DNA of 64,000 bases, taken from Marsupella aquatica. Lineage: Eukaryota; Plantae; Marchantiophyta. The stretch is from contig OZ316894.1 in NCBI GenBank assembly GCA_973895155.1, positions 9,262,234 through 9,326,233 of the forward strand, in the 5' to 3' direction. This document shows positions 1 to 58,589 of the stretch, piece by piece (the first letter of the stretch is position 1; each line of letters starts with the position of its first letter). Both the position numbers and the translations under genes were made by a program. The notes beneath the pieces are model-generated. The model saw only the letters and a list, made by a program, of their open reading frames with translations. It was not told the origin of the DNA and did not search any database.

Positions 1-3000
1 ATAGGTCATTTCCCTGGCCTTTAGTTTGTGCTTCATAAAATAAATTTTTATTACATACCAAACAATAAGAAATAAACATAAATTGCACAGAAAGTGACAA
101 ACACACTAGAATGAAGAGCAAACAAAAGAAGTCCAACGAGGACAAAAGCAAAAGAAGCTAGTGCAACCCACACAAGAGCTATAAGGTTTGGAAAGTAACA
201 AATACTAGTACGGGTGCACAGGACGAGCTCGGGGACCAGGGCTCTCATGCCCGTCCTACTTAAGAACATAATCTACATATCAACTTTTGTTGTTGTCAGA
301 GAAATTTCAGTCTCTCGGTAGGTCATGAATCACAAATTATAGCATAGATGAAGCCCCATTGACCGTGAAATTAGGGAATATATTCCCATGAACTTTGGGA
401 GTCGAAAGAGAATACACTTTTCGTCAGATTTATATTAAAAATATTTCTGAGTGGTCCATTCAAGTTGCATGGTTAGATGTCAATTCTTAGATGATTCGAG
501 ATAGAGTGAAGCTGTAGATCATAATTTCTGTGGTAATATTTTATATTGATATTTAGGCTATCTTCACGAGTAATGACGGACATGGGGAGTATGGATATAA
601 GGAGAAAAGATCGTACTTATGAATGATATTAGGATTATTCATTAAAAAAATTTAATAAAAATAAAAATAAAAATGAAAAATTAGGATTATTGATTTTTCA
701 AAAAAATGCCCAACTTTGCAGTAATAGATGGTGTGATTGTTCACATTTTTATTAGATTGAATGACGTAAGAAGTACTCTACCTGGTCTGACTCACGACGT
801 TGTCTACCTGTACCTGGTTACCAAGTCTCCAGACAAGTATTTTCGAAAAATTACTGCCAGTCCTGGAGGCAAGTCCGCCGAAGGACATGTCCTCAGGCAG
901 AAAAGAAGGATGTCCCTCATGAGACGTGCTGGGCACCTTCCATGCCCCATGCCACTATCCATGGGTCGTGCAACAGAAAAACTGTAGTGTAGTACTATTG
1001 TATTGTCGTGTGACTCCGTACGCTTCGTAGCAGTGCTCTATGGCTTCACTTCTGGGAACGCTATCTTAATCTGAGTCGTTTAATTTGAACTTCAACGATC
1101 ACGATTGGCCGAAACGGATCACGATTGGCGGAACGGATCTCCGACTTAATTAAACAAGGAATGGCTCGTTCATGAACGATGAATTCCATTGAATTTAAAT
1201 ACAATCTAAAACTCTTGCTATCAAGTGTTTTGCATCTCCAGAGTGATGAGCGTCAAAAGATGTTACAGTGTATTTCTTGATTCCATTTCATACTAATCTT
1301 AAATATTGTTTCCCTCACTATAGTAGCGTAACTGAATGAGCAACCCTTCCTTTCCCCCACCCATTGCCTCACCCGCTAACTTCTTACCACCCAAAGTCAC
1401 GGTCTAGAGTGAATTATCTTTTAAGTCATGTGCAACCCAAAATTTGGATCTGATGTTTCATATGTATTTCAGATCCATGATCAGTACCCTTGACTTCCTT
1501 TTAGATTGGGGGATTACTCTCATCATCACATGTCCCTTCTCTTTCTCTCCCTTCGGAGTTGTGTCACTTGGCCAAACATCTTATACAGATTATCTGTATG
1601 GTATGACAGATGAGGCCTTACTAAGTTATATGAAAGTGGCAGAATTCACCCCTTTTAAAGACCTGGAGATTAGCCAATGCACATTAGCATGTACAGTCTA
1701 GTATAGTGCCGTGTATGTGCTAAAGTTTTGCAACTTGCATTGCAAGTCATCTATAATCATCACTCAAACCTTCTGCAAATAAATTGGACAAATTTCTGCA
1801 AAAGAGAGATCACCCCCCATACCCTTAGAATCAGCCAGATTAGAAAGATCACCGTCACACGGCAGAACGCAAGCCAAAGTGAACGGGTCAGATTGCTTTG
1901 TACTACGAAGATTGTCCTTCCTTTAATTGATTTTGTGCCTTAGTCAATGAAAAGAGTAAGCTTTTCTTTCATGTTTGGTGAATAGAACACAACTTTAAGC
2001 AGTATCCAACGTGTCGTCCACCTGCACTCTATGGTAGATAGACTGCAAGTCTAAAATATTTCAGAACCTTTTGGGGCAAAATAATATGGAACCATACGGA
2101 ACCTTGAGTTAAAGAGATGGTAGTTATTCACATCTACAGTAGGTCAAAGTCAATCCTGCTTTCCCTCATTTTTTAGACGGTTAACTCTGTCCTGTAACCA
2201 GGGTTTCTGGATTAACGCTGAATCCGTAACCCCAGTCCCTGCCAACTTCTGAGAACGCCCTAGTGTAAACCTTATCAGTGACAAGCAATACAATGTGAGA
2301 ATTCTATCTGGGCATATTTTTGAACGTTTTTTGCCGCCACTGGATGTGCTTTTTGAATTTTGATTTCATCAATAAATAATCATTTCATGAAAATAAGACG
2401 AAACTGACTTTGGGCGGCCCTGACACCGGATTGTATTACTTACAATGTCAGATTAAGGTCGTTGTATATCGAAGCGGTCCTTGCCAGCGTTCATGAATTT
2501 AAATAAAATTATGTACTGAAACTCGCCAACAAGCAATAGAACGTTGGGAAGAGGAAAAATTCAAATGAAATAGCTACAGTTTCTGGACGAGAAAGATTGG
2601 GACACTCAAGCCAAAAAGTACTACAGTAGCTCTCTTCTGAAACTGCAGTAGTGTCGGCTGTCTGGAGGTACACATTCCCCGGTAGGGTGTGCACTTAAAA
2701 CTAGTGTTTGCATCACATCATAAGTGCAACAACTTGGCATTTGCATTTATAGATAACAGCTTATGGTTCAAATCTATTATTATAATGTGCAATCATTGAC
2801 ACATGATAGGGGGACGTTGCCAGGGTGTGTTGGCAATGGCTGATTCAGCTCCACAAAAAATGAAGAGCAATAAGACTCAAATGTGTCACATATACATCAT
2901 AAATGCTGTGGAGTACCGAGATGACAAAAAGAATCCTTGATATAAATTTTATTATAAAACAGCAACATCTTGAGGCCACTAAGTCCAAGAATGGAATTTG

Positions 3001-26901: not shown

Positions 26902-29900
26902 TCAAGAAGATTCTTCATACAAGCCTCGTGAACTTGGCTCACTTGGGCCCTTTTTGGCTGCAGACATCTGCCTAATGGTCGACTCATCCACAACTTTGCT
27001 CCAAGTATTTGATATCTTTTCTGAATAACCAATCTGAAACAGTCAACAAAACAATCACCATAAGATTCCGTTCCCAGCATCAGTATTTACCATGAGCTTC
27101 ATCTAAGCTACAGCACCTCACTACATCAATTCTTACGTTACACGCCTGCAAGGCATTATTCCACAGGCTACCTTACTCTTACAATATTCTACAGTAGAAG
27201 AGAGTAAATGCCGCAGATCAGTGTCCCGAATAAGCTAGTGAGAGTGGGTTTACCTGAGTGATCACAACCCCCTTTACCATGTTGATGAAGTCCCTTCGCC
27301 TTTCTTTGTCAAACCGTTCAAGTTCTGATCGATTTCGCTCCTAAATGACAAATTTGAGTTTGGTTGTACACCCTTGAATATGTCAATATCTTCCCAGATC
27401 AAGCTCAAAGCTCGCTTTACATTGGCATAATCAAGACTTGACACACGGTCGAATGCACAAGATTGGTGTTCGAACTTATAATAACAAGCATCACCCATAA
27501 ATGGAAGAGCAGGTGGTTTACCTTGATATTTTCATACTCTTGTTGGGCACAATCGCGAGCTTCTTCATCGAGTTTTGCCAGCTCTTTCAGCTCATCTATT
27601 TTCCGATTCCTACTTTTGTCAACACCAAAAAATTTACTAGCGGCCACATTGAGTTTTTCAATACGAGTATTGGTAGCTTGCAGATCCGTCATCAATGTCT
27701 GCACGGTTAGCAAGGCGTTGGCGCGATCGGTGTGTGCAGCATGAATAGCCTGCATGAGCCCAAGATATTCATGCAATTGATCCTGACCAGGAAAGGGAAA
27801 CGCTCCAGTTAGCCACCGGATATTGAATATACAATTGAGTACGATCGACCTTAAGGTCTGTCCATAGCTTCATTCCAGCTGAAAGCCATGGTTGTTGGCT
27901 TTCTAAAAATTAAACCATGCCCAAGGAAAACAGTCCTGACCAACATCGACTTTCTTCTGGTCTGCCAGGTCCTAATAGAAGGGTTCTTGTTGATACACCA
28001 TTGCAATTCTTCTAAATCAACCGTGTCTCGAGAAAACAATTCTGAACAATATCATCCTTGACATTAGAACCATGTACTCATAACTCCTGAACATAGCAAA
28101 GAAGTAACTCCTATAAACTTTTACACGGTCAGTTTCACTTGTACACATATCAGGTGAAGAGGCAAAAATAGTGCTGCCGGCATTCCACAAGCCCAGAATT
28201 GGAATGCAACTATTAAAGCACTAAGGCCAGATCAGATACGCTGTAGAGCCTGTCCTAAGAAGATTGGACTCATTTCGCAAAGCATCGAAGTTAAGGGAAC
28301 ATACCAGATGCTTCATAGATTGTGCATTGGCTTCCCGATAGCAGCGGCTAGCTTTGACAGCTGCTGTCCCAATACGCTTGGCATCGTTACTATGCACTCT
28401 TTGGGCATTGGTAACAGCCTCTTCCGTCTCAAACTTCGCAATTTTTATAAAAGCGAGACCAAGCTCCCCCATAACCTCGCCTGCTTCTTGTTGAGCCTTG
28501 ACCAGAACCTCAGCCTACAGAACAACATTACCACATAAGACAAGAGAGCCAGGCTTGGTGTTTGACAATATACAGTCTATCTCCTCAGATAATCAGTTTT
28601 GCAAAGCGACATTTGACACAGCCAACTCTGAATGGAGAAGTAAAGCAGTAGTTTTCGGTGATAACCTATTTGTTAACAAAAGATTCGTTAACCAAAAAGG
28701 TCTTTCGACAGTTCGCGCATAACGGATCTGCATGAAGCCAATCTCTAGTCTTGTTTGCTTGAACACTACAGGACCTGCTTTTGACATTGTAGAAACCACC
28801 ATGACAATTGTCTCATAGTTTTCAGTGAACCTAGCTTCAGAGTTTTGTTTTGAGAATTTCCGAGGCCTCTATGTCATGTGCATCTCGTGGAAACTTCCGT
28901 CGGGAATAGGCCATGGCATCTTGTCGTATACTCTTCCCAGGAATTTTTGACGTTTATCAACGCGGAAACTACAGTAGCTTTGTTGAGCAATAGTGGGCTT
29001 CAGTCAGAGCATCACCAGAAGCTGAGATTTTGAGGTATGCTTTTCAGTCCTAGCCAAGTATCAGAATGGAAGCTGTCCAGATTAGAAGAATACGGTACTC
29101 TAAGATCCTCGTGCCGTTAGGCACTATGAGAATGGGACCAAAGCCTAGACGCTACAAGTTTGGCCAGACAGCCCATCTAAAAAGGGGACCCAAGGGGTTT
29201 GGAGATTAAGGTGATCACTTGGAACGGCGGGGTCCTTCATTAGCTCGAGTTCAAAGACTACATCTATAGCACGACAACTATTGACACTCACCTAACTCAC
29301 TGAATGCAGTTCTGGTTCATCACCACAAAAGCTTTGGCAAAAGCAAGCTAAGGGAAAAAGGTCCCCGAGTGAGATCGTGACGCATTGATTGGTCAATTGT
29401 TTGTCAGCTTTCTTCATTCGAAATGATCGCTGGATTTAGAGTTTTAGGGTTCACGCTTGGAAACTCAGTCCTAGCACTATCTACAATTCATCTCCCAACT
29501 GCATGCACGCTTAAAATCTTACCCTTGTGTCACTACGGTACTAGTCTGCTGGATAGTAGCTTCGGTACAAGAATAGTCCTAGAACAGAGCTAGAGGAAAA
29601 CCTTGAATATGCGACACAGGTGTCCAGTAGATTGCGTAGAAACGAATTGCATGACGAATTTAAGCGAAGGTTGCACAGTGAAAGAAAAGGGGAAGGATAG
29701 GGCTGGGAAAATAACCTGCTGAGACGCATCACTGAGCTGCTTCTCAAGCTCCTGAAGTTTCTCCTTTTTCTCTAGAAATTCCTTATCTTCTTCAACAACG
29801 GCTGGCTTGGTTCCTCCCCAATCATTTGTCACAGACTGCTTCAGCTCTTTAAATAGACGTACGAGGTCACGGCCCCCCTTCGCTGGCTGGGCAGCTTCTT

Positions 29901-30804
29901 GCGGCAGGACAGTGCTGGTCTCGCCGAAAAGCTGGCGAGGCAGATTCACTGCCCCATCCAACATCCGGGACGCAATATCCGTCGTGGGCATTAGCGGCAA
30001 CTTACCTTGGAACTGAAGGAAAAGCCGCAATTCGTTACTCCTCCTCAACACCGGGTGGGCAGCTAATCTGAACAAATACTTCTCAAGCGCTACCCTCCGT
30101 TGCTCGATGAACTCCGCCTTTTGCATGACCTGGCTCTCCACAATACTCTTATCAGGCCGCGGAGGAATGAAGAATCCCCGGTAGGCCTCGGCTAGCCTAT
30201 CGGCGAGGGTGACCACATCACGGAAGCGCCTCCGAACAGTGAAGTCAGTTCCTCTATACTCAGGAATATTTGTTTTGGTGGTGATCAAGTAGGTCACATA
30301 ATTGCTTCCACCTGGCACGATCGAGCTTCCCGCATCCAATGTTTTTTGTGGCTGCGTAACAGTAATGACCAGAGTGTCTGTGTAGACAGGGAACGAGTGA
30401 AGAAGCGAGGAGGACGAATCACCAACTTCTCTACTGTTACCGTTGCCGGATGATCCTTCTCCCATATAGGGAGTGAAGATTGCATCTGCGTAGGACGGAG
30501 GCTCGACCAGATCTGCCTCTCGGAAACTGCTACCTTTCCTAGACGAGGAGGTGGTGTCTTCAAAACCTTTCCTATACGAATCCTTGAAGCCGCTCTTCTG
30601 AGACAAGCCGTCGTGCTTGTTGTTGGAGGAGGCGGCCAGCGGATGGGACTCCTCCAGACCAGCACCACTTCCGGACATGGCACTACGGTAGTCACTGTTG
30701 GACAAAAACGGATGTGGAGAGTGGTCAAGAACGAGGCTCTCCATGGCGTCTGTCGACGTGAACAAGCGCGCCTGCTGCGCCTCGTCGTCCTCAGAGCCCA
30801 TCAT
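26902..30804 (-). CDS. SNX2: Sorting nexin 2 (PX-BAR retromer component). Exons 30804-29716, 28514-28305, 27782-27522, 27340-27254, 27033-26902
   Basis: PX domain YVTYLITT...VRRRFRDVVTLADRL...FIPPRPDKS...FIEQRRVALEKYL. Vps5/BAR region with LHEYLGLM, ERNRSELERFD and GYSEKISNTW. Introns are phase-0 GT-AG. Confidence 0.95.
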
Positions 30805-34728: not shown

Positions 34729-37700
34729 ATCTCCCCCTTGACTCTGGTCTAGGGGAGGGTAATACTGCTAACCTATATGATTCCTCGACGGGAAGTTCTG
34801 GACGAAAACCAAAATGGTTTCCCCTCTCTAACTAGAGCATATCATAACTAAACCGTAGCCTATTACTAGGAGTGAAAAAGAGCTTATATCAATAATTATA
34901 GCGAATGTTAAGAAAAACCCTTACTTGTGATGCAATTACAAAACCTGTAGCACATCACAATGTCTAGAGAAACCTTCCAAAGGAATCACTTTGGTAAATG
35001 CGTTAGCTGGGTCGAGTTTATTGTCTATCTTGACTAGCTCAAACAAATTATCAAACACAACCTGTCTGATAAAATGGTATCAGACGTCTATGTGCTTCAC
35101 TCTATTGTCCATCACCTAGTTCACAACAAGGTGGAGCGCACTCTAACTATCACAATGGAGCTTCACATTCCCCTATGGCAATCTCATTTCAGTGATAAGT
35201 CTATCCAACCAAATTGCTTCCTTCGTTACTTCTGCTGCTGCAACATACTCTGCTTCTGTAGTAGACTAAGCAATACACTTTTGCAAAGTAGACCTCCAAC
35301 TTATGCATCCATCGCCAAGTGTGAACACGTACCCTGTTCTTGATCTTCTTTGGTCCAGATCTTGTTCATAGCCAGAATCTACATAGCCAATCAATGATCT
35401 AGAATTCTTTGCATTTGCATCAAATAAAAGACCATGATCCACGGTATCCTTCAAGTACCTAATAATCCACTTCACTGCTTTCCAATGTACCTTCCCTGGA
35501 TTCAACATGTACCTGCTCACCTTGCCCATAGCCATGGCAATTAAAGATCAGGTCTAGTGCAAGTCATCACATACATGAGACTTCCCACTGCCTTATCATA
35601 AGGAACCTTTGACATCAGCCCTTCTCTATCGCATCTGTGGGACAAAAAATTGATGATAATTTGAGGTGTACAACCAAAGGGGTACTTACTGGCTTACTAT
35701 CCCCCATGTTGAACCTAGCAATTACCTTCCTCGCATAACTGCTATGTGTCAACCATAGCTTACCAACCTCCAAGTCCCTAGTGATCTCCATACCCAAAAT
35801 CCTCTTAGCTGGCCCTAGGTCCTTCATCTTAAACTCTGCATTGAGCAGTGCCTTAAGCTTAACAATCTCAGACCTTTTCTTGGCCGCAATAAGCATGTCA
35901 TCCACGTAAAGTACTAAAATAATGAACCCAAAAGGCAACATTTTTCACCGGTTTCAATATACACAAGGGTCAAACACACTCTTATGAAAACCTTGTGACC
36001 GAATCCAATCGTCAAACCGCTTGTTCCATTGTCTTGGTGACTACTTCAACCCATACAAGGATTGCAGCAATCTGCAAACCAGTTCCTCTTGTCTTCTCTT
36101 CACAAAACCTAACGGCTGTCTCATGAAGATCACCTCTTCCAAGGTGCCATAGAGGAAAACTGTGACAACATTCATCTGATCTAGCAGCAGACCAAACATT
36201 ACAATAAGTACACACAATAGCCGTATTGTTGAGTACTTAACAATTGGTGAAAGGACCTCATTGTAATCCATATTTTTTTCTTGTGTGAATCCCTTGGCTA
36301 CCAACCTAGCCTTGTAGACCTTTGATCCACCTCCCATAGATTGATCCTTCAGCTTGTATATCCACTTGTTGTCCATCACTTGCTCACCCTTAGGCAGCTT
36401 AACAAGCTTCCAAGTTTTGTTGTCCTTCAGTGACTGCATCTTTGTATGCATTGCTGTAGTCCACTTCTACTTCTCCTTTGAAGCACTTGCCTCATCAAAT
36501 GAAGACGGTTCCCCTTCTTCCAAAATTAACGTATCACCCTCATCATCAGATGCAAATTCATCCTCTTGCAGTTGAGATGAATCAACCCACTATCCATACC
36601 TAGGAGGAGCGCGTATAGTGCAACCAAATGTTCTTCTAGCCAATAACTCCGATTGAATTGCATCTACTGGTACAATTTGAAGCTCAGTAGCATCCACTTG
36701 TTGCTCACCAGCATCAACAAACTACTCTTGTTCCTTTGGCACAAGAACCAGCTCCATACTTGGAGCACCTCTCTCTCCGATCATGCACTTCATGATCAAT
36801 CTCCCCCTCAACGAGATCTGGGATAGGAGATTTTCCTTTGTCAGTACGGGAGACCTGAGTATTCTCTCCCTCCTTCAATAATCTGGATTCATTGAAGGAA
36901 ACATCCCTACTAACAACGAGCTTACAGGCAATAGGATCCCATAGTCTGTAGGCCTTCACACCACTCTGATACCCAAGAAAAATATATTTCTTGGACGTAG
37001 GATCCAACTTGGTCCTATTCTGCTTTGGCGTGAGAGCATATGCATCACTTCCAAAAACTATCAAGCCATGATAGTCTGTTTGTCGTTTATAACGCATTTC
37101 AAATGGCGTTTTGAAATTGATTGCACTAGAAGGAGAAAAATTTACCAAATAAGCTGTAGTATTGACAGCTTCTGCCCAAAATTCCTGTGGTAAACCTGAT
37201 TGGCTCAGCATACTCCATGATCGCTCCAATAGTGTTTGATTGAGCCTCTCAATGACACCATTCTCCTGCGGAGTATAAACTATGGTGAGATGACGAGTTA
37301 TCCCCTGTTCAACATAGTACTCTTCAAATTCTATGGAAGTGTACTCCCCATCGTTGTCTGACCTCAGACTCTCCACCCTTGTATCCAAACACTTAACCGT
37401 GTTTCCCGTTTGATTCTCCACTTGGGCCTTCCACTTTGTAAAAATGGACAAGACATCAAACTTATGCATCATGAAATAAATCCATAAAAATCTTGAGTAA
37501 TCATCAATAAAAGATACATAGTACAATTTTCCAGAATGTGAGGGAGTCGAGGATGATCCCCACACGTCACTATGTATGTACTCAAAAACCGTTTTGGAAC
37601 GATGAGTTCCAACACCGAAAGCACGATGATGCTGCTTTCCAAAAATGCAATGCTCATAGAAATCCAATTTAAAAGATTGCAAATCAAAAATGAGCCCATT

Positions 37701-40219
37701 CTTTTGCAAGATAGCCAAACCCTTCTCACTCATGTGGGCTAGCCGTGGATGCCATAGTTAAGTCATTTCCTCGTGAGACTTGGTTACATTGGCCTCTCCA
37801 CATACTGTATTGCCCTACAGCACATATAATTTCTTCTATCTGCTCCTCTTCAAAATCACTGTCTCTCCCGACATGACTTGAAGTTCATCATCAATTACTC
37901 GCCATTGATGACCATTTGTATCCAACACACCAAGTGAAATCAAATTCTTATGCATGCCATGTACAAACCTGACTCCGAACACTGTGCGCACAATGCCATC
38001 AAACATTTAAATCTTTACAGACCCAATACCCTCAACTCGATAGAAGTGATAATTTCCCATCAAAACTGAACCGTTTGACACAGAATAAGAATTGAAATAC
38101 TCACAAATGTAACAAATGTGAAAGGAGCAAACACAATCAAGAATCCACACATCATTTTTTCTCCTAGATGAGGTGCACAGGGCATACATCTGGCTTCATA
38201 AAACATACTCATCATTGAGTAAATCACTTTCTCCATCAGCACTAGCCACATTGGCTGATGAAGATTCAACTACCTTACCCTTACAATCCCTCTTAACGTG
38301 ACCAACCTTGTGACACTTCTAACAGACTACTGGTTTTCTCTCCTGGGACTTCCCCCTTGAAGCAAATCTCATCCTAGATTTACTTCATTCCTTGCCATTC
38401 GTGCGTTGCTTGGGATGCCGTTGTGACCTCCCATGATTCACATTCAAGACAACACCAGATGACAACGTTGTCTAGGCTTGACCTAATTTTTTTTGTGCAT
38501 CATCTGACAACAAAGAGCTTACCATCTCATCGTATGAAATAGACTTTAGGTTTCTATACAAGAGAACATGCTTCAAACCTTGATAAGATGGGGGTAAGGA
38601 GCTAAGAAGAAACAAGGCTTTGTCCTCTTCTTCAATGCCCCACTAGAAGAAACCCACCCTTTTTGAGACCACAAAGAACATGACTCATCCGAGACCTTCA
38701 TGAAACAGTGACTCCAAGGTTGTTGGTGTCATGTTAGTCACACCTCCTTGACTGAGTTTTGGTGAAGTTTTGGGGAGTCATGTTTACAACTTTTAGGGAA
38801 GTTGCAACTATAACTCAATTAAGGCAATTAGGTTGAAATTATACAAGTGATTCTACATTAAAGTACAACTTATGAGAGCACAACATTTAAACCCTTCAAC
38901 CTTAAAGTATGGGATCTAACCCAATACATATGATTTTGGATACACCATATGTCATTCCACATTAATTTAATCATAGTTTGGTCATACCATTTTAAACCAT
39001 TATTGAGTATTCCATCATTATTCCTGCCCCCATTTAGACACAATGAAGCCCTAGCCCCATTCAACTACAAAAAGGCTAGCTTTCTCAAAGCTTGCTAACC
39101 TAACTTAATGCTTTTTGTAGTCAATCTCTACTTTTTCTATCGAGGTCTTCTGGTCGTGCCAAAGGAGTGCTTATCACCCAATTTCAGCCTCACATATGCA
39201 GGTTGGGTTTACTTATTGCCATGTCCCATAAACCTTCATGTACTTTCGGCCGGCCCCCTTCATATATGACAACCAATGCATGCTTCAGTTTCAATATAAG
39301 TCCAACTTAAATGTCCAACTTAAATATATATGAAAAGTACCCCAGCCCTAAAAATGGGTACTTTTCATAATGGTAATATGGGGTCATACCTGACTATTTG
39401 GCCACATTTTTCACCAAAGGGTGTGGCTCAAAGTTGTTCCTAACCACTCACCCCACATATAACTATTGCGTAAGTCCTTTGGTTATCATTAGGCAAATCA
39501 TAGACTTTCGTGTCTCTTTGTGAACTAATGTCTCCACTTCAATGGGAAGACAAGTGAATGGTCTTTGCGTTCGGCGTTTCTCTCTCGCACAAGGTTTTGG
39601 GAAGGTTTTTCCAAGGAGTCGGTTTGCCTCAAGGGTTTGCAAGCCAAACGGAGCTTTGCGTGCCATTGTCATTGAGCTGGTGGGAGGTCACCGAGGCTTT
39701 GGAAGAGGGAGGTCGAATGCCGTCTGTCTGACGGGAAATTCTGTCTTTGGGACTCGTGATGGTCGCGAGATGGATTGTCCGATTTGCGGTTGGAAGCAGA
39801 GACTTGCTCGGAACGTCGAGCGCTTGTGTACAAGGCAGATAGAGCTGCGTTTGTGTTTGTGCCGCGATGTAGTGTCTTTGAATTGGAAAAGCGGGATTGG
39901 CGTGGGGCATCCTTTCCTCGAATGCAGGTCTCCTTTGAGGAATCTTTGGCGTCGCAATGGCTTTGTCTTGTGCCATGAGCAGAGGGAGGAGTTTTGCTAT
40001 TAAGCTGTACTCAAGAATACAGAGTTTGACATTATTCAACTCCTGAACAAGCTGCTCGCGATCTTCCTGTGTCTTTTCCATTGCCTTTTTGTTGTCTTTT
40101 AGGAGGAATCTCCAGCTGCGGCTTCCATTCAAAAGGTTTAGTATTGTCCAACTGATACTCTGTATCAATGTCTTCATCTACAAACTCGCTCACATCCAGG
40201 GGTTCCTTATTCGACATGA

Positions 40220-48502: not shown

Positions 48503-48996
48503 TGTCCAACATAGCATTTTTTACTAACCTATCCCCCAAATTGACCATCATTATCAACCTGTCCCACAAACTATTTCAATTCTAAGTAGACATCACCCTA
48601 TTCATTAAAAGTGTATCTTATTTTGTTCACTTTTAGGCCTCAAAATGTACATTTTTTGGTCTCAAAATGTACACTTTTTAACCCCAAAAGGTATACTATA
48701 GTACAATACTCTACACCTAAATAATCAATTGTAAACTTGAGGGAAAAATAATGATCTTTACTAGAAGGAGTCTCATCCTAGTTCATTTATAAAAGATGAA
48801 CATGGTGGTATGTCTGATGGCCATCACTTTATATCTTGCCCAAATGTACACTTTTTGAAAGCCAAATATACACTTTCTATTGCCCAAATGTTCACAAATT
48901 GAATAATAATTCACTTTTAATGAATAGATTGATAGACCCCCTTTTTGTACATGGGTAACTATCTTTAACTCATGTACTTAACCCAAGGTACTCCCT
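48503..48996 (+). repeat. Left terminal inverted repeat (about 145 bp once the nested MITE is removed)
   Basis: TGTCCAA..TTTTTTACTAACCTATCCCCCAAATTGACCAT..AACCTGTCCC.CAAACTATTT..TAAGT.|CCCCCTTT.TGTA.ATGGGT..CTTTAACTCATGTA.TTAACC..AGGTA.TCCCT. Confidence 0.88.
48592..48933. mobile_element. Small MITE nested in the left TIR, 4-bp TSD AGAC
   Basis: TIR ATCACCCTATTCATTAAAAGTG / CACTTTTAATGAATAGATTGAT. AGAC at 48588-48591 and 48934-48937. Internal CAAAATGTACACTTTT repeats. Confidence 0.8.
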
Positions 48997-49737
48997 TTTG
49001 GCCCTGGAGCATTTTTTAAAATGGAAGTACATTGGGAAAGATATAGAACCGCAACAGGAAGGAAGCCACGAGCCTCTTGTCAAGCCTGCCTTTGCAGGTT
49101 TGTTGGGGCAGGGAAGAAGCCAGGGTCATTGTCACACCATTCTGAGTAGTGTAGTAGTATATCGTGCTATTAGAGTATGTACATTTGGTATGAGTGCTAT
49201 TGGAGCCGATAAGGTTCTGTCAGGTTTGTGTGAGAGGGTACTTCTCACTTGTGAGGCATTGAAAGGTCATCTTTCAATGTTGAGCCTTGGAGAGAGAGGA
49301 GCTTGAGGAGCTTGAGTGTGGCTATGGTGGCTGTGAGCTCCGCTTGTGTAACGTGGATTCCTTGAGTAGTGCAAGGTGCGTTGGCTTGACATACGTGTGT
49401 GATCGGATCGGTGCGGGATCGATGGGGTATTGTTGACCGGGATCGTTGCGCCGATTGTATGGAGATTACATTGAAAGATCACATTCGAAATCTGCTGTAC
49501 GGACTGTGCGGACAGAAGTTCGATTGATTGAGTTGTTGACGGTTCGTGGTAGCTCGGATCGTGTGTTGTTATCAAATAGATCGTTGGTATCTTGACCTGT
49601 ATCGTTGTTGTCCGATCGGCCTGCTTCCCGATCGATGTACAGATCTGTGATTGGTGACAGGTTTTGAGTTGGAGGTCGATTGATGATTCGTGGAGGAAAG
49701 CGAATGTTGAGTAGATGTTGGACAGTGGAAGTCGATC

Positions 49738-49830
49738 CGTGAGGCTTCAGATCCGATTGCCGGCTACTGTGAGGCTTCAGATCTGATTGTCGGCTACTAT
49801 GGGGCTTCAGATCTGATTGCCAGCTATTGT
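49738..49830. repeat. 30-bp tandem repeat, 3 copies
   Basis: GTGAGGCTTCAGATC(C/T)GATTG(C/T)CGGCTACT units. Confidence 0.85.
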
Positions 49831-50068
49831 TGGATGATGTTGGCAAGGCGCAGGTGAAGCGACGGCTCTTTTCCTGAAGGAACGGAGCTGCCAATGCCCC
49901 GTGCGACGGTATCATCGTTTCAGTGAAAGAAACGAGGGTCAAAGGTGTTGAATCAAGCTGCTGCCAATTCTGTGGAAGGGCTGCGTTTTTCATGAAGGAA
50001 ATCGACAGTTTTCGGGAGCTTTTCGTGAAGGAAGTAGTCGTTTTTGGGGTCAGGTGTGAGGTGCACAA

Positions 50069-50307
50069 GGTCACCCATCCCAAAAGTGCTCGCACGAGGC
50101 GACGCGTGAGGTCACCCATTCCGAAAGTGCTCCCAACCGCGAGCGCGAAGTCACCCATCGCGAGCGCAGGCAGGCGCGAGGTCGAGGTCACCCATCCCGG
50201 GGCTATTCCGGGCCATGAGCGCGAGGGGAGGCACAAGGTCGAGCGCGAGGAGGTCACCCATCCCGGGGCTATTCCCAGCCGCGAGCGCTTAACTGGCAAG
50301 TTCTCAT
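50069..50307 (-). promoter_or_regulatory. 5S-rRNA-derived Pol III internal control region (A box plus C box) with four extra C-box copies
   Basis: The reverse complement of 50248-50307, ATGAGAACTTGCCAGTTAAGC-N23-GGATGGGTGACCTCCT, mirrors plant 5S ATCAGAACTCCGCAGTTAAGC-N23-GGATGGGTGACCTCCT. Further GGATGGGTGAC-like boxes at 50069, 50110, 50150 and 50186. Confidence 0.75.
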
Positions 50308-53300
50308 CCCACCTTGTGTACACACAAGCTTTGACAACTTGTTGTTTAGATTCAAGCGCCAGGGGGCTTTATACACTTCCCGGTTTGTTTAGAGGCCTAT
50401 TCTAGGCCAAATCAGAGGCCGTTTTAGGGTTTTTGATACTTCTGAGTCCATCTAGATTCACAGATTGAACCAATTTTGCCTTGGTTCTCATCTACAACAT
50501 TGGAGTGCCATTGTGAAGCCTATTATGAAGGCTCTTCCTTGAACCTTATGTACATTGTCATATTGATTTGCATTTGCTTTTGTGTGGAGAGTTGAATGGT
50601 ATCCATTTTTGTTTCTGGATCCTCTTCACACATGTTTCCTGTTTATGCGCCATGTTAGTTTCGTGTGGGCGCTTGATTCCATAGGAGTGATCCGGGTTTG
50701 CAACTGGACACTCTAGTGTCCTGTGTATTTCTCTCTTGGGTGATGTTGGAGTGATGCCCAACACACCATGGTGAGTGCTTGTGGTTGTGGTGCTGACAGG
50801 GATAGATTGCCCTTAGGGTTAGCACATAGATTAGGTTAGGATTGGTCACCACGGATTCTTCTGGTGCTGCTGGATTACTCGATGGATGACGGACCGGTTT
50901 CACTCGGAGTGGGGCACAGTTTTGACCAGCGACATTGGTAGCAGTCAGCAGTGCAGCTTCAGACAGTGATTCTGATGAGGACTCAATGACCAGTTCTCCT
51001 CATCATCAGGTGGTTGCACCTTTGTTGTGGGATATGGACGAGATGTACGGGGCTACAAAGGGCCCACGACGATACTCTGGTGCAGTTGGCACAATTGATC
51101 TGGATGACTTCATCCAGGAGTTTGATACGTGGTGCGATATGCAGACATTGCATAACGTCACGTTGTTTACCCCTTTCATGGCATGGAAGGGATTATTCCA
51201 GCATTTGGAGGGGCCACCCATGGATGACTATCATGAGTTTCGGAAGGCTCATTTGGTTGAGATTGAGGCATGGAGGCAGCATTGGTCGCCTAATTACGTG
51301 TCCATCACCTATGGCACTAGTGCGGCTGCCCAACCCATTGCCACAGCTGGTGCTTCTTCTAGCAGCACTAGCCAGAGTGGCACACCATCCACCAGCAGCA
51401 CTCCAGCAGCATCCACCACTACTCCTGCCGGTGTGATTGTGACAGGAACTAGAGTTGCGCCAGCATTTAATCCTGTGGTGGAATTCTTTGAGGTACTGAA
51501 GCAGAACTATGAGGGTGTGAGAACTGATAAGTTGAAGGGTCTTCAGGAGTTCCAACGCAAGACTGGAGAAAACCTACGTGAGGCATACACACGTATGCGC
51601 AGATTGATCACTGTCACCAAGGGAGTGACAGAGGCTCAGGCAGTCCAGTTTTGGTATGCAATTTTGGACAGAGAATTGCGACGCAGAGTGAGAGATGTCA
51701 CTCTGCTTAGGGATGCAGATCCCACATTAGCAGTTGTTTTCACCCTTTCTGAGCGCATTGAGCTCAATATGGTGAATGAGAAGGTGGTGACTTCCGGATT
51801 TGCCAAGGAAGCACCAAAGGCTACATCTACATCCACACCACAGCCTACTGCACGGAAGAGCCAGAGGGAGAAGCCTACTGCACGAGAGTCTACCAGCCAG
51901 AGACCTGTGCCCTCTTATGCTGGACAGCAGTCATGATGTTGGACCTATGGTGGGGATCATGCACAGAGATATTGTCCAGATCATAGAGGATCAGGGGGAG
52001 CATCAGCGCCTGATCAGCGACAGTGTGATCACTGTGGAGCTCCTGGACACACCAAGGATAGGTGTTTCTCACTCCACCCTGAGTTACGGAGAGGAAGATC
52101 CCGTACACATGATCAGGGAAGAGGAGGAGGAGGTAGAGGTGGTGGATGTGGTCGTGGCATGCCACATGCAGGGAGACAGGGAGGTGATGCTACCCCTGCT
52201 GTAACCATAGATCCAAAGGATGCTAAGATTGCTCAATTGGAGCAACAACTAGCTGCCATGGCTAGTTCCCAGGTGAGACCTAATTCTGGTGATGGGGCAT
52301 CTACATCCTATGGACCTTCCACATCCCATGGTCCTTCCACATCTTATGGAGCTGATGGAGACCTTGCCACCATGGGATTCATGTGTGGCACTGCACATAT
52401 TGATGCATCAGCAGCTTTGACACGTGGGGCAGCCAAAGCTCTTGAGCCCCGAGGAGCAGTAGTGGAGTTAGATCCACAAAGGGGGGATGCACGTCGGCAG
52501 ACAAAGCTTCCTCAGTCTTTTACATTGTCAGAGACAGTTCAGACTGCCTCTATGAACCCGGTTCGGACAAACCTTGATGTGGGTAAGTTGGCAGAATCAG
52601 GTAGTGATGCAGTAGGGATGACAGGTACCTTGCTGGGGGCGGCTATTGCCATAGTACGCACCCCATTATTTTCAGCGATAGACATGCTGAACTTGGGAGT
52701 TGGTCCTGCAAAAGTGTTCAGATTGGCAGCTACACTCTGTGAGGACACTCCAGTGGTTGCTTCCCATGCAGAATCAACTTGCAGTGTTAATGCAGTGAAG
52801 ACCATGCCACCTACTGCTACTAGTGAGACATGGCATGCAGCAGCAACGAGGTTGGTGGATTTACCAGCACGCCCTGCATTTGAGAGGACTAGGTTTAAAC
52901 CTAGTGTTGTGTCATTGGATAATCGGAGTGGTATCTTTCGATTAGTTGGGCCTTTTGGAGCAGTATACCAGCCAGAGAGAGTGTTACTGGATACTGGTGC
53001 TCAGCCCTTGATGTTGGGGAAGTCTGCCATACGTGGATTGGGATTGCATCCAGAGGATTTGGAGGATTGTCCCTTTCCCATTCAGACTTCATTGGGGGGA
53101 CCTACACCTACACAGCATATCACCAGGAGACCACTTGATTTGAGGATTCAGGAAGGTCATACCACAGATAGCTCACAGATACAGGCGCGAGCTATACTGA
53201 CTAAGGTAGAGTCATATGATGTGTTGGTGGGATGTACAGTGCTCTACCCCATGGGATTTATTCTTGATTTTTGGGAGGAATCAGTGTCATATAGACCTAA

Positions 53301-53699
53301 TTAGCAGTCAGGAGATGCTCAATTGAGCAAATTGCCAGTGAGATTTAGTGGACCTGTGGGAGGCCCTAAATCCACACCATTGTCTTTGGTAGCATTCAGT
53401 GGTGTAATTGTTGGACTTGATGATTTGATTGAGGGTAATGCGCATGCAGCCGATGTTCCACCATTGGAGGAGTCTCATGAGGAGCACATCATGCGAGGAT
53501 TACCTGTTGGCAGTGTTGTGCCACTAGTGTGGGGCACTGCACAGGCCTTGCCACAGGCAGCAACACGATTGGTACATGATGCATGGCGTCATGCTTTTAC
53601 ACCACAGTCAGGAGCAGAGTAGTCTCTTGCAGATGGACCTGTGACTCTTTCACCATTGGATACCACTCCTATTGCTTGGCAGTATCCACCGGAGGGTAT

Positions 53700-54630
53700 T
53701 TGTTTGTTGGATCTTTTTGGTGGGATTAGCACTGGATTGGCTGCTGTTCTTCAGGCAGGAATTCCTGTGCGTCGTTATTTGTATGTGGAGACAGATGAGA
53801 CAACACGAAGGGTCTCATTGCGACATGTGGCTATGTTGGTGGATAGATATCCACAGTTGCTGCCAGTGGATGCTGTTCGTGGTTATCAGCATGCACTACC
53901 TGCTGATATTTTATTGTTGGGGGCGGATCATCTACATCGTGTTGGCCCCATTGATGTGGTGATTGCTGGTTGGCCATGTCAGGGCCAATCTAGAGCTGGC
54001 ATTGGGCATGGACTTCATGATCCACGTTCTGCATTATTTTGGGAGATGTTACGGGTGCTGCGTCATCTCCAGCTACATCAGACACAGTCTCCAGCATACA
54101 TTTTGGAGAATGTGCCATTGTTAGGTGATGATCGTAGTCGGATTGTTGCCAGTGTTCACCAGGTGAGGTCTTGGATTGGACCTGCTGTGTTATTGGATGC
54201 TGCACGTGTGGGTTCTTGTGCACATCATCCACGCTTGTGGTGGACTAATTTGATCCCATGTGAGGTGCTGAAGCGCGCATTTGACAATATTCCACGCTCA
54301 CCAGCCTTAGTGGTGGATGATATTTTGGATCCAGGGCGTCGTGCACAGGGTGTGACCCAACCTGATAGACCTCCATTGGCAATGGTCAATGCAGTTGGGT
54401 GCCCACGTTGTGCATTACCCACTCTTGTAAGCCACTCTGCTTCATATGCATTCAGAGCAGGTGGCCCTGGACTTGTATGGGACACAGCTCTCCAGCAGTT
54501 AGTGGAGCCTACTGCTGATGAGAGAGAGCGTGCTATGGGATTTTTGACTAACACCACTGCAGTTGCCTCTGTGTCAGAGGGTTTGCGGCGCCAGGTTCTT
54601 GGTCAAGCAATGGATTTGAATTGTTTGACT
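53700..54630 (+). other. DNMT3-like C5 cytosine DNA methyltransferase domain within pol
   Basis: Motif I LDLFGGISTG, II VETD, IV AGWPCQG (catalytic PC at about 53974), VI ENV (about 54106), VIII AHHPRLWWTN, IX ERERAMGF, X RRQVLGQAMD, in canonical order. Confidence 0.9.
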
Positions 54631-57600
54631 TGGATTATCAGCTTGGGAGTAGCTGAACAGTTGCGGATGCGCTCTGCCGGAATTACTGATTGTCCCTTGG
54701 TGAGCTTGCGGTCCACTGAGATAGTATTGACCACAGCTGGGGGCGAGCAGACAGTCCATGGACCTATGACAGGATTGGCGGCTGGACAGATTGTTGAGCA
54801 GGAAGGGACTGCTCAATCTACTGCTAAATAGCAATCATCGGCTATCTCTTCTACCCTACAAAGAGATATTAGGGATTTGGTGGAGAGTTGGGAACCATAG
54901 CTTGGCCCTAAGTTAACAGGGGAGGAGAGACGTCGCATGCATCAATTCCTGAAGAGTTATTGGAATTGTTTTGCATTCAGCATGAAGGATTTGGGAACAT
55001 TGAAGGGCCCTGGTATTCAGATTGAATTGGCTAGTGATGCGCCAATCTTTCGTAGGCCATACCGTTATAGTGACATGGAGAGAGCTCTGATTCAAAGCAG
55101 AACTCAAAATTTGTTGGAGGCTGGATTGGTGGAGATTTCATATGGGGAGTATGCATCTGCCACAGTGATGCCAGCCAAGAAGGATGTGCATGGCAATTAC
55201 ACAGATAGGCGCATGTGTGGTGATTACAGACCTATTAATCGCCAGACAAAATCTGATCGATATGCCATGCCCACACCTGAGGAGATCTTTGATGCTGTGG
55301 GGCATGCAAAGGTTTTCAGTTCATTGGATCTGAGGGCAGGATACCATCAGCTTCCAATTAGGCATGCTGACAAGTCCAAGACAGCATTCTGGGGGATTGA
55401 TTCTTATGGCAAAGATCGTTTGTATCAATGGTTATTCTTACCATTTGGGTTGAAGAATGCACCAGCTGAGTTCCAGAGAGTCATGGATCGAATCCTTGCA
55501 GGTTTGGATTTTGTCAGATGTTATATTGATGATATTTTGGTCTATTCTTCTACTGTGGAAGAACATCAGCAGCACTTGCAGACTGTGTTGGAGAGATTGA
55601 GAGCACATGGGTTGAAGCTCCATCCTAGCAAGTGTAAGTTCTTCCAAGACCAGATTGAGTATTTGGGCCACACCATATACCCAGGGGGATTGGGTGTACA
55701 ACAGACTAAAGTGGAAGCCATTACACAGATTCTTTGTCCTACTGATGTGAGTAGAGTTCGTGCATTCTTGGGATTGGCGAGCTATTACAGGAGGTATGTT
55801 AAAGGATTTAGCCAGCTTGCTAAACCTTTGACCATACTCACTAAGTTGGATCAGGAATGGATTTGGGGTGATGACCAGGAGCATGCCTTTCAGGAGTTGA
55901 AGCATAGGTTGGCATCATCCCCTATTTTGAGAAGACCCATTTCAGGCAGACCATTTCAGCTACACACTGATTGGAGTGGAATAGGACTTGGAGCAGTGCT
56001 GACTCAGAAGGATGATGAGGGGAATGAGTTTGTTGTGGCTTATGCCAGTAGATCAAACAATTCAGCAGAGGCTAAGTATAGCTCTTATGAGGGAGAGTGT
56101 TTGGCAGCAGTGTGGGCTGTTGCACACTTTCGTTGCTACTTGTTTGGTAACCCCTTCACCTTGATCACTGATCATCAGCCTCTTAAGTGGTTAATGGAGT
56201 CTGACAAGCTTACAGGGAAGCTTGCACGATGGGCATTATTGTTACACGAGTATGATTTCCAGGTGGTGCATAGGCCTGGAAAAGTGAACTTGGATGCAGA
56301 TGGATTAAGCCGCAATCCATGTACCAGTCAGCAGGATAAGACTGGAGCCAGATGGCATGATGAGTCAGATAAGGAGATGGTGCCAGGATGGCATGCATCT
56401 GCCTTTCTTTGTTGGGTGCCAGCATACAGTGGATCTGTGGACTCTACCTCATTGGATGGAGTGGGTGATGAGTCTTCAGATGTGGATGTTGGTGAGGTAA
56501 CTTCTGGACAACAAGATATTCACAATGATGTGAGAGTGTTGGAATATCTGCGCAATAGTTCTATTGTTGGCAGTGTTGATGCCAAGGAACGTGACAGGGT
56601 TCTACAGAGAGCCAAGAGGTTTCGATGGGAGGGAAACCATCTTTTGAGAGTACTGCATGATGGTAGGATGTTGGTGGTACCAAAACCATCACAACGAGTA
56701 CATTTGGTGCGACATGCGCACGAGGAGTTGGGTCACTTTGGTGTGAAGCGCACTTACAACTTGCTGCAGACACAGTATTGGTGGCGTGGTATGCACACTC
56801 ATGTCTAGCAGTTGATAGCTAAGTGTGTGGTATGTGACAGAGTGAGAGCATCATTTAATGCTCCCACTCCCCAGTTGCACCCATTACCGATCATGGGTTT
56901 GGGATATCATTGGAGTTTGGATTTTGCTGGTCCATTACCTCTTACCCAACGTCATAATCGGTATGTTTTGGTCATGGTGGAGCACTTCTCCAAGTGGATT
57001 GAGCTAGTGGCGTTGCCAGATAAAGCCAGTAGAGGAGTTGCTGCTACATTTTTGGATCGTGTACTCAGTCATTTTGGAGCACCAGCTGAGGTGTTGACTG
57101 ATCAGGGAACTGAGTTCCATAGAGAGTTTGAGAGTTTGTGTGAACAAGCTCTGATTGATCATTGATCATCGCACTACCTCTCGTGATCATCCTGAGGCAG
57201 ATGGATTAGCTGAGAGAGTTGTGCAAACTATGAAGAGAGGATTGCGTAAGTATGGCTTGCAGGTTGGTCATCTGGGAGATTGGGATCTCCAGCTACCTTG
57301 GTTAGCTATGGGCTACCGTTTCAGTCGGCAAACATCACTTGCATCCTTCTCACCCTACTTTTTGCTCTATGGTAGAGAGCCAGATTTGCCAGCAGCTATT
57401 CATCGTCATGCTGCACCAGTTGTGAACTTGGATGATCCTGATGTTTGGGTCAAGGTGTGTTCAGAGAGAGCACGGGTATTTCAGAGAGTGATGCCCATGG
57501 CTTTTGACAACCTTGCCATTGCCCAACATCGTGATACTTTGAGGTATGCCACTATTCGTGGAGGAGGTTACCGTGCAAGCATTCGACGATTTCATCCTGG

Positions 57601-57822
57601 TGATTATGTTTATTTGCAGCAGACAGCACCCACGACACTTGATGTGACCGCATGCCGGACAATCTTACGTGTGCGTGAAGTGTTGCCTTCTGGTGTCCTG
57701 ATGTTGGAGGGACGCGATGGTATGGTTTGGAAGGATCATGTGCGCAACTGTGCACCATGTCACCTTCCCAACATTGATGGTACAGTAGATCCAAGCTTGG
57801 CACATGTTCGTGCTGGCTTGAA

Positions 57823-57961
57823 ATGTATGTTGTGTGGATCTGCTCAGGGAGCAACTACTATGTTGATTTGTGATAAGTGTTCTAGAGGATGGCACATGTC
57901 ATGTTTGACACCACCATTGCAGGTGATTCCTAGTGGATCATGGTTGTGTCCTCAGTGTCGG
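57823..57961 (+). other. PHD finger at the integrase C terminus
   Basis: C4HC3 pattern CMLC...MLICDKCSRGWHMSCLTPPL...GSWLCPQC. Confidence 0.93.
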
Positions 57962-58445
57962 TGAAGCCGACTAGTTATCATTTGTGTTCTCTTGGCAGAT
58001 ATGGATTGCAGGTAGGTGATCGATGGGGCTCACTTGCACCCGGCCTCCTGATCTTCACACCTAAAAAGGTGTATATCAACCTTGTAGAACTCATGGCTAG
58101 CTAGAGTTAGGGGACCTTACTCCCAGCTAGGGGGGCGATTGTGGGTTTTGGACATGTGTGGACATGAGTTCCACTTGTATTCCATTCTCTTGTATTTGTG
58201 ATGTGGCAGTGTGACTATGTCTGGATGTATGTGACAAGCGATGTATGTTGTGTAGCGATATGTATGCGCACGCATCATGCCTGCCCTATCGCAATGCAAG
58301 GGAGCCAGCCCCCGAGCCAGCCTAGTACTCCCTTAATCATCATCATGGGAAGGAGTCAGCCCAGGTCAGGGTAGAACAAGCCAGGGTAGAACAAGCCAGG
58401 GTTTGGCACGGCCAATAGTGCCTCACCATGTGTCATGCAATCAGT

Positions 58446-58589
58446 AGGGAACTACCTCAGGTTAAATACATGAGTTAAAGTTAACCCATATACAGAAAGG
58501 GGGTTGACTTAGGAATTAAAATAGTTTGAGGGACAGGTTAGTAATTATGGTCAATTTGGGGGATAGGTTAGTAAAAAATGGTTTGGACA
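58446..58589 (-). repeat. Right terminal inverted repeat
   Basis: The reverse complement aligns colinearly with the left TIR and ends in ...TTTGGACA. Confidence 0.88.

What the first reader, a model, noticed from the sequence alone, without database searches (positions are those of the whole stretch)
50069..50307. Antisense array of 5S-rRNA-derived Pol III promoter boxes in the element leader
Seen: on the minus strand, one A box (AGTTAAGC) and C box (GGATGGGTGACCTCCT) pair keeps the 23-nt spacing of plant 5S rDNA although the spacer sequence has diverged. Four more C-box-like copies follow, and a TATAAAG lies upstream on the same strand (about 50365-50371). Known: Cassandra TRIMs carry 5S sequences in their LTRs, and TFIIIA binds this region. 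Inference: kept spacing with a changed spacer suggests selection on promoter function, such as TFIIIA recruitment, antisense RNA, or insulation from silencing.
Basis: partly seen in the sequence, partly recalled or inferred. Interest (0 to 1): 0.7.

Follow-up and report, generated by a model that had tools for sequence, protein, structure and literature searches.

The report
Backward 5S promoter array in retrotransposon

Summary
Observation confirmed and extended. The minus strand carries a full 5S-gene-type Pol III promoter layout. The A box sits at +50 and the C box at +81, 23 nt apart. TATAAAG lies at -30, with C at -1 and a purine at +1. Four more C boxes follow, and the only T4 run in 1.2 kb would end a 262-nt antisense RNA. 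It is not a 5S gene (no RF00001 hit) and not a Cassandra LTR. It lies in the internal 5' leader of a Gypsy-type element (gag-PR-DNMT3-like-RT-RH-INT-PHD, TG..CA ends, 4-bp TSD) whose full-length relatives have split direct repeats like KnitGypsy-Dnmt3. Other copies keep the boxes, and diverged copies keep the TATA in register. The box-versus-spacer test across copies was not significant (P 0.11-0.27). A CpG-rich domain ends at the A/C box (change point 50286). 0 of 59 distant relatives carry the antisense boxes, and the 7 measured lack that CpG domain. Unrelated animal LINEs show the same antisense leader boxes. Best reading (about 0.5): TFIIIA/Pol III recruitment that shields the element's promoter from methylation. 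Binding, transcription and methylation are untested.

The parts
50367..50373 (-). TATAAAG at -30..-24 relative to the 5S-equivalent +1
   Evidence: The only TATA[AT]A on the minus strand of the 9.1-kb element. Kept in register in diverged copies.
50343..50357 (-). Predicted start region: A at +1 (50343), C at -1 (50344), GC at -14/-13 (50357-50356)
   Evidence: Placed by the A core at +50 in Rfam-confirmed 5S genes. Plant external elements as in PMC9043955. The start itself is inferred.
50299..50320 (-). Remnant 5S similarity at +24..+45 (16 of 22 letters match the 5S gene of L189); over +1..+37 as a whole only 11 of 37 match
   Evidence: alignment, counted from the printed match line
50287..50294 (-). 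A-box core AGTTAAGC (+50..+57)
50270..50276 (-). Intermediate-element region GGAATAG (+68..+74); a second copy precedes C box 2
   Evidence: 7 of 8 letters match L189 at +68..+75
50248..50263 (-). C box 1 (+81..+96)
   Evidence: 16 of 17 match L189 and L143 at +80..+96
50186..50197 (-). C box 2, with its own IE copy but no A box
   Evidence: (D7)
50149..50160 (-). C box 3 (core GATGGGTGAC intact)
50110..50121 (-). C box 4; one mismatch private to this copy
   Evidence: At 50120 essentially all depth in X1 (28 contigs) and X2 (21 contigs) carries the canonical base.
50082..50085 (-). T4 run, predicted Pol III terminator (RNA of 262 nt from +1)
   Evidence: Only run of 4 or more T on the minus strand between 50343 and 49130. 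T4 suffices in Arabidopsis per PMC10533338.
50069..50080 (-). C box 5, just past the T4 run
49330..50300 (.). CpG-rich domain between the element's presumed Pol II start and the A box
   Evidence: CpG o/e 0.85-1.12 against 0.33-0.41 in the rest of the leader and the coding region. Change point 50286 (50246-50308), LLR 42 against a permutation maximum of 7.7.
49130..49468 (+). Terminal segment A of the host element, starting TG; right end approximate
   Evidence: Depth steps near 49130 and 49490 and a contig joining the element's right end to 49130. Analogy to relatives.
49468..49479 (+). Likely self-priming site, complementary over 12 nt to 49269-49280
   Evidence: 1 of 300 shuffles reach it; 6 of 7 relatives show 10-17 nt of the same kind
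50926..57964 (+). gag-like, protease, DNMT3-like C5 methyltransferase (53623-54831), RT, RNase H, integrase, PHD finger; broken by several stops and a frame change near 57160
58128..58274 (+). Polypurine tract followed by terminal segment B, ending CA at 58274; 4-bp target duplication TCAT at 49126-49129 and 58275-58278

Best explanation
The segment matches a whole 5S rRNA gene promoter (TATA, start site, A box, intermediate element, C box, T4 run) set backwards in the 5' leader of a Gypsy-DNMT3 retrotransposon with four extra C boxes, and it likely recruits host TFIIIA and Pol III to keep the element's own promoter region open and low in CG methylation. Shown: the layout, its register against real 5S genes, loss of most other 5S sequence, its place inside the element, its presence in other copies, and a CpG-rich domain whose right edge falls on the boxes. 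Inferred: TFIIIA binds all five C boxes; only the first unit, which has the A box and TATA, would start a roughly 260-nt antisense RNA ending at the T4 run; boxes 2-5 would be docking sites only; and this occupancy would work as a boundary against methylation coming from the element body, which matters for an element that encodes its own DNMT3-like enzyme.
For: Register: A core at +50 and C box at +81 as in Rfam-confirmed 5S genes. TATA at -30, GC at -14/-13 and C at -1 as described for plant 5S genes. Chance of TATA[AT]A at -32..-26 is 0.003 per site, 0.0003 with C-1 and purine +1, and it is the only such hexamer on the element's minus strand. Among loci fetched by the same A-C pattern, 13 of 46 5S-gene-like segments have it at -28..-32, but 0 of 24 box-only segments. 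Functional letters are kept while neighbours are lost: +50..57 8/8, +68..75 7/8, +80..96 16/17, against +58..67 4/10, +76..79 1/4, +97..119 7/23 (L189). 296, 215 and 2 contigs of runs X1, X2, X5 (three organisms) lie on the block; no site in any C box, the IE copies, the TATA or the T4 run is listed as variable except the window's private change. Two diverged loose ends keep TATAAA in register (6/6 and 5/6) while the letters before it match 11/21 and 10/17. CpG boundary at 50286. Seven relatives without boxes have leader CpG o/e close to their coding level. In P. formosum rDNA is 6.7% CG-methylated against 76.8% for Gypsy (PMC6739443). Three N-terminal fingers of Xenopus TFIIIA bind the C box with near full affinity (PMC1950542). 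Five LINE ORF1 types in animal-type 5S/U1/U2 arrays carry antisense C-box or A+C-box clusters just upstream of ORF1.
Against: The direct test of box against non-box polymorphism is not significant (1-2 of 13 sites in boxes, 3.4-3.6 expected, P 0.11-0.27), and the one X5 contig over the A box changes its first base. CpG transitions do occur inside the array: 2 of the 3 changes where this copy differs from most others, and 3 of the 13 variable sites (50094 counted in both), so inserted copies are not fully protected (P 0.09 for enrichment). CpG-rich promoter regions are common in LTR elements anyway (recalled), and the relatives lacking both features live in other hosts, so the comparison is confounded. 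0 of 59 relatives with 1 kb or more upstream carry antisense C boxes, so the element family replicates without them. The same paper on TFIIIA says the C-terminal fingers also add much affinity. The animal LINEs come from one assembly and were found by the pattern itself. No binding, RNA or methylation data were obtained.
Confidence: 0.5

Rival explanations
1. The 262-nt antisense Pol III RNA, or the act of convergent transcription, is the product: it damps or times the element's own expression by pairing with the leader or by transcriptional interference.
For: Complete start-to-T4 unit; the only T4 run in 1.2 kb falls at the end of the array; it faces the presumed Pol II start near 49269.
Against: The RNA folds no better than shuffles (z 0.23). 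One promoter would suffice, so four A-less C boxes, one of them past the T4 run, are unexplained.
Confidence: 0.17
2. Neutral passenger: a piece of rDNA (5S gene plus spacer subrepeats), or a 5S-derived insertion, was picked up by one lineage and copied along; the CpG richness is inherited from unmethylated rDNA.
For: Absent from distant relatives. P. formosum has a highly repetitive region right after its 5S gene (supplement legend). One TG..CA pair with a 5-bp flanking repeat encloses the boxes (49959-50324). Conservation test not significant.
Against: Mosaic retention of exactly the factor-binding letters and all spacings. TATA kept in diverged copies. The TG..CA pair is one hit in a wide search, has 4/8 terminal complementarity and would cut off +1 and the TATA. 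Only 0-3% of laid contigs in X1 and X2 run on into unlike DNA, and none of the 15 listed loose ends (of 45) is at 50324.
Confidence: 0.15
3. RNA-level use: the element's sense RNA carries five stretches complementary to 5S rRNA and pairs with 5S rRNA or 5S RNP to aid translation, transport or packaging.
For: Antisense orientation and a position upstream of the first ORF in both this element and the animal LINEs.
Against: Does not explain the TATA at -30, C-1, the 23-nt spacing with changed letters, or the T4 run.
Confidence: 0.07
4. Targeting: TFIIIA bound to the element's cDNA steers integration toward 5S or Pol III chromatin.
For: The animal LINE analogues sit in 5S/U1/U2 arrays.
Against: This copy sits in nested transposons with no Rfam hit in 64 kb, and its integrase carries a PHD finger that could do the targeting.
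Confidence: 0.06
5. The antisense RNA primes minus-strand reverse transcription in place of a tRNA.
For: No TGG-type tRNA primer site follows segment A in the window or in 5 relatives printed.
Against: A self-priming type complement exists in the window and in 6 of 7 relatives, and the predicted RNA would end about 600 nt from segment A.
Confidence: 0.03

Closest known systems
Cassandra TRIMs (PMC10853983, PMC10886601)
   Same: 5S A box, IE and C box kept with fixed spacing while the letters between them vary; mirrors host 5S promoter.
   Different: Cassandra is short and non-coding, has one 5S core in the middle of each LTR and uses it to make its own template RNA. Here the core is single, internal, opposite to the coding strand, comes with the external TATA and a T4 run, has four extra C boxes, and lies in a 9.1-kb coding element.
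Ajax / TRIMp3 and SINE3 (PMC10886601)
   Same: 5S internal promoter reused by a mobile element, RNA structure lost.
   Different: These are non-autonomous and transcribed by Pol III for mobility. An upstream TATA in register was seen in 0 of 24 box-only segments fetched here.
KnitGypsy-Dnmt3 of Klebsormidium nitens (PMC5890265); 'streptophyte Gypsy-DNMT3' (10.64898/2026.05.21.726589)
   Same: Gypsy domain order, DNMT3-like domain in pol, DIRS-like A-coding-B-A-B repeats in full-length relatives.
   Different: Relatives are named from liverworts and Sphagnum; this copy has A and B once each; no 5S boxes are mentioned in the passages read.
Plant 5S rRNA gene (RF00001)
   Same: TATA, GC, C-1, A box, IE, C box and T run in gene register.
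   Different: No Rfam hit; +1..+23, the spacers and +97..+119 are diverged; the T4 run is at +259, not +120.
tRNA-gene / TFIIIC chromatin insulators (PMC11346459)
   Same: Pol III factor occupancy as a chromatin boundary, anti-correlated with CpG methylation.
   Different: Those are A+B box, TFIIIC-bound sites; this is a TFIIIA type 1 promoter carried by a mobile element.
Mutsu (5S-targeting LINE; PMC5340908)
   Same: Retroelement tied to 5S genes.
   Different: Mutsu inserts into 5S genes; passages read do not describe antisense boxes in its leader.

Membership tests
Cassandra TRIM | 5S A box, IE and C box at 5S spacing | tested here: met
Cassandra TRIM | 5S core lies within both LTRs, at 25-75% of LTR length | tested here: not met
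   Single occurrence, about 600-900 nt inside of segment A's end; no direct terminal repeat
Cassandra TRIM | Short, non-coding, own PBS, PPT and TSD | tested here: not met
   Host element is 9.1 kb with gag-pol; only a weak TG..CA/5-bp pair that excludes +1
5S rRNA gene (RF00001) | Covariance-model score above gathering | tested here: not met
   No hit at gathering or E up to 10
Type 1 Pol III promoter | A box +50, IE, C box +81; plant TATA near -28..-30, GC near -13, C at -1; T4 terminator | tested here: met
Type 1 Pol III promoter | TFIIIA binding and Pol III transcription | not testable with these tools
   Needs EMSA, ChIP or RNA 5'-end data
Type 1 Pol III promoter | Boxes more conserved than spacers across copies | tested here: inconclusive
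   1-2 of 13 variable sites in boxes, 3.4-3.6 expected, P 0.11-0.27
SINE3 | 5S head starting at +1, LINE-like tail, TSD, no upstream promoter | tested here: not met
   TATA in register upstream; only one 7-nt low-complexity flanking repeat; no tail seen
Gypsy-DNMT3 (KnitGypsy-Dnmt3 kind) | PR-RT-RH-INT order with DDE integrase | tested here: met
   (protease below the Pfam cut-off, E 0.003)
Gypsy-DNMT3 (KnitGypsy-Dnmt3 kind) | DNMT3-like, non-rearranged C5 methyltransferase in pol | tested here: met
   PF00145 E 1.3e-10; best solved relatives DNMT3A/B, E 3e-11
Gypsy-DNMT3 (KnitGypsy-Dnmt3 kind) | A-coding-B-A-B repeats | tested here: inconclusive
   Met in L024, L044, L047, L051, L059 and a B-to-A junction exists in run X11; the window copy has only A-coding-B
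Gypsy-DNMT3 (KnitGypsy-Dnmt3 kind) | RT or DNMT tree groups it with the Klebsormidium elements | not tested
   No Klebsormidium sequence was held

The most novel reading that the evidence does not exclude
Autonomous retroelements of unrelated classes (a bryophyte Gypsy-DNMT3 lineage and animal LINEs in snRNA/5S arrays) have convergently built reversed, multiplied 5S promoters into their leaders, using host TFIIIA as a portable anti-silencing boundary. In the bryophyte case it would shield the element's promoter from its own methyltransferase.
Probability: 0.33. Interest if true: 0.82.

Novelty: new variant of a known kind. Interest (0 to 1): 0.62.

Why it matters
Known 5S-promoter captures (Cassandra, Ajax, SINE3) serve to transcribe short non-coding elements. 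A reversed, TATA-bearing, multiplied version inside a coding element cannot serve that role, so it points to another use of TFIIIA, most likely chromatin protection. If true it gives a 320-bp testable module for how a transposon that carries a DNA methyltransferase keeps its promoter on, and a plant TFIIIA-based insulator. It also extends Gypsy-DNMT3 elements with split repeats into bryophytes and suggests how they replicate.

Tried and rejected
Rfam on the window and on two narrow stretches: no 5S hit, only chance matches. Relatives of gag: none in viral or prokaryote collections. The look-up of sequencing runs: no RNA holder listed. Run X11 has no cover over 49610-50456 and X5 none over most of 49610-50246; gaps in cover show nothing. 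Summed contig depth is higher over the boxes than over neighbouring leader but is no copy number, so it was not used. The minus-strand ORF 49466-50368 has no Pfam hit and was not pursued. A conserved antisense B-box-like 11-mer in 7 leaders of relatives is one arm of a hairpin with no A box at tRNA spacing: weak lead only. The predicted antisense RNA has no unusual fold. The lineage of the 5S gene in L189 could not be fixed: the supplement search found no sequence, 3 of its PDF files are pictures, and the genome search gave no answer; that it is bryophyte-type is recalled. Four look-ups in earlier findings returned nothing.

Full report
Observation. The minus strand holds AGTTAAGC at 50294-50287 and GGATGGGTGACCTCCT at 50263-50248, 23 nt apart, and four more C-box cores down to 50069. 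The A-N(21-25)-C pattern occurs once, against 0.00 in 100 shuffles. Rfam finds no 5S gene.

Register against real 5S genes. A pattern scan fetched 112 stretches from prokaryote assemblies and 2 from viral contigs. Of 20 loci given to Rfam, 19 hit RF00001, and the A core starts at +50. That puts the window's +1 at 50343 (A), with C at -1, GC at -14/-13 and TATAAAG at -30..-24. These are the external elements described for plant 5S genes (PMC9043955, PMC8264772; passages). It is the only TATA[AT]A on the element's 9139-nt minus strand; the chance per site is 0.003, or 0.0003 with C-1 and purine +1. 13 of 46 gene-like segments have such a hexamer at -28..-32, and 0 of 24 box-only segments. Against the closest of six 5S genes compared (L189), identity is 8/8, 7/8 and 16/17 in the A core, IE region and C box, and 4/10, 1/4, 7/23 and 11/37 in the spacers, tail and head. 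That L189 is bryophyte-type is recalled, not shown. The only T4 run on this strand in 1.2 kb is at +259; four Ts end Pol III transcripts in Arabidopsis (PMC10533338, passages). The predicted 262-nt RNA folds no better than shuffles. Boxes 2-5 lack the A core.

Host element. Plus-strand frames from 50926 to 57964 encode gag-like, protease, C5 methyltransferase, RT, RNase H, integrase and PHD pieces, broken by stops and a frame change. The methyltransferase is closest to DNMT3A/B among solved structures. There is no LTR pair. The element runs from TG at 49130 to CA at 58274 with a 4-bp duplication. A contig in run X11 joins the right end to 49130. Of 31 related loci self-compared, five show the full A-coding-B-A-B layout and two more show A twice, the layout given for KnitGypsy-Dnmt3 (PMC5890265, passages). 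Named protein relatives are from liverworts and Sphagnum, so the host is likely a bryophyte. The boxes lie in the internal leader, not in a terminal repeat. A 12-nt complement between the end of A and a site inside A, seen also in 6 of 7 relatives, suggests self-priming and removes the need for an antisense primer.

Other copies. 296, 215 and 2 contigs from runs X1, X2 and X5 (organisms A, B, C) lie on 50055-50390. Fourteen substitution sites and one deletion are listed. At 50120 other copies carry the canonical C-box base. Leaving out the two changes private to this copy (50120, 50215), 1 or 2 of 13 sites fall in boxes, against 3.4-3.6 expected; this is not significant. Diverged copies change the spacer after C box 1 and the letters before the TATA, yet keep TATAAA in register (6/6 and 5/6). 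The X5 contig changes the first base of the A core and loses one base at +19. No listed joint removes the block cleanly (15 of 39 joints shown, 3). In 80 loci of distant relatives (gag mostly 45-63% identical, a few samples, not independent) no leader has a C box; 0 of the 59 with 1 kb or more upstream have an antisense core, and one has a single sense-strand 9-mer. The array is therefore a lineage-specific gain.

CpG pattern. CpG o/e is 0.85-1.12 from segment A through the array and 0.33-0.41 beyond. The best change point is 50286 (50246-50308), LLR 42 against at most 7.7 in 500 permutations. Leaving the array out, 50 of 151 Cs are in CpG on the left and 12 of 120 on the right (P 5e-6). Seven relatives without boxes show leader values near their coding values, but they have other hosts. 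Against full protection, CpG transitions account for 2 of the 3 changes where this copy differs from most others (P 0.09). In P. formosum rDNA is almost unmethylated while Gypsy is 76.8% CG-methylated (PMC6739443, passages).

Independent analogue. The same scan returned eukaryotic contigs in which LINE-like elements lie among 5S, U1 and U2 genes. Five ORF1 types have C boxes, some as A-C pairs with changed spacers, antisense and just upstream of ORF1. They come from one assembly and were found through the pattern, so frequency is unknown; orientation and position were not selected for.

Mechanism. Most likely (0.5) TFIIIA occupies five C boxes, the first unit assembles Pol III, and this keeps the domain between the element's presumed Pol II start (near 49269) and the A box open and low in methylation. 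[quoted passage not shown] All steps after the sequence layout are inferred. Rivals: antisense RNA as regulator (0.17), neutral passenger (0.15), pairing with 5S rRNA (0.07), targeting (0.06), primer (0.03).

Known systems and novelty. Kept boxes with variable spacers are known for Cassandra (PMC10853983: abstract, introduction, passages) and for Ajax and SINE3 (PMC10886601: first part and passages). It fails Cassandra membership on position and on element type. Gypsy-DNMT3 elements are known (passages). PMC6317226 and PMC5340908 were seen as passages. Seven searches of the held library (listings and abstract starts only for papers not named above) showed no report of an antisense 5S promoter array in the leader of a coding retroelement. 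Subscription papers, Repbase and unread supplements (bioRxiv closed; picture PDFs) may hold one. Verdict: real, new variant of a known kind, interest 0.62.

Noticed in passing
L117/L161/L193, L171, L119/L137, L151, L144 (leaders just upstream of minus-strand ORF1): LINE-like elements (endonuclease, RT, zf-CCHC hits) among animal-type 5S/U1/U2 arrays in eukaryotic contigs of one MAG carry C boxes, some as A-22/23 nt-C pairs, antisense and within about 250 nt of ORF1; five different ORF1 starts. L117, L171 and L193 appear to join a U1 5' piece (read by eye).
   Followed up: partly
window 49130-58274; L024, L044, L047, L051, L059: Replication model for these split-repeat Gypsy elements: PPT precedes B, a self-priming complement follows A, and B joins A through CA-NN-TG. 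This fits an RT-level LTR of B+NN+A and integration of circles cut at the internal junction: two-LTR circle gives A-coding-B-A-B, one-LTR circle or B/B recombination gives A-coding-B as here. 4-bp TSDs in the window and 4 relatives. Inferred.
   Followed up: partly
P0004, P0009, P0014, P0032, P0071 and others; L001-L080: Gypsy-linked DNMT3-like domains have relatives named from Calypogeia, Sphagnum, Marchantia and Riccia, and the gag-PR-DNMT-RT-RH-INT-PHD order recurs in the loci. The 2018 paper describes them from Klebsormidium.
   Followed up: partly
window 48510-58585 and 48936-58504: The retroelement sits inside two nested inverted-repeat elements (arms 90% and 82% alike), which interrupt a PF04827 plant-transposon coding region.
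   Followed up: partly
L046, L051, L062, L063, L069, L070, L071 (1.7-2.3 kb upstream of gag, minus strand): Conserved B-box-like 11-mer in a locally conserved island that is also a hairpin arm.
   Followed up: partly
window 49739-49830: 3.1 copies of a 30-bp tandem repeat inside the CpG-rich leader.
   Followed up: no
window 22062-22880 (-), 29590-30804 (-), 35615-37733 (-): Tic20-like ORF, PX-domain ORF, and Copia-type integrase/RT fragments.
   Followed up: no
L083-L193: Many prokaryote assemblies hold eukaryotic 5S rDNA or box-only 5S-derived contigs, apparently contamination.
   Followed up: no
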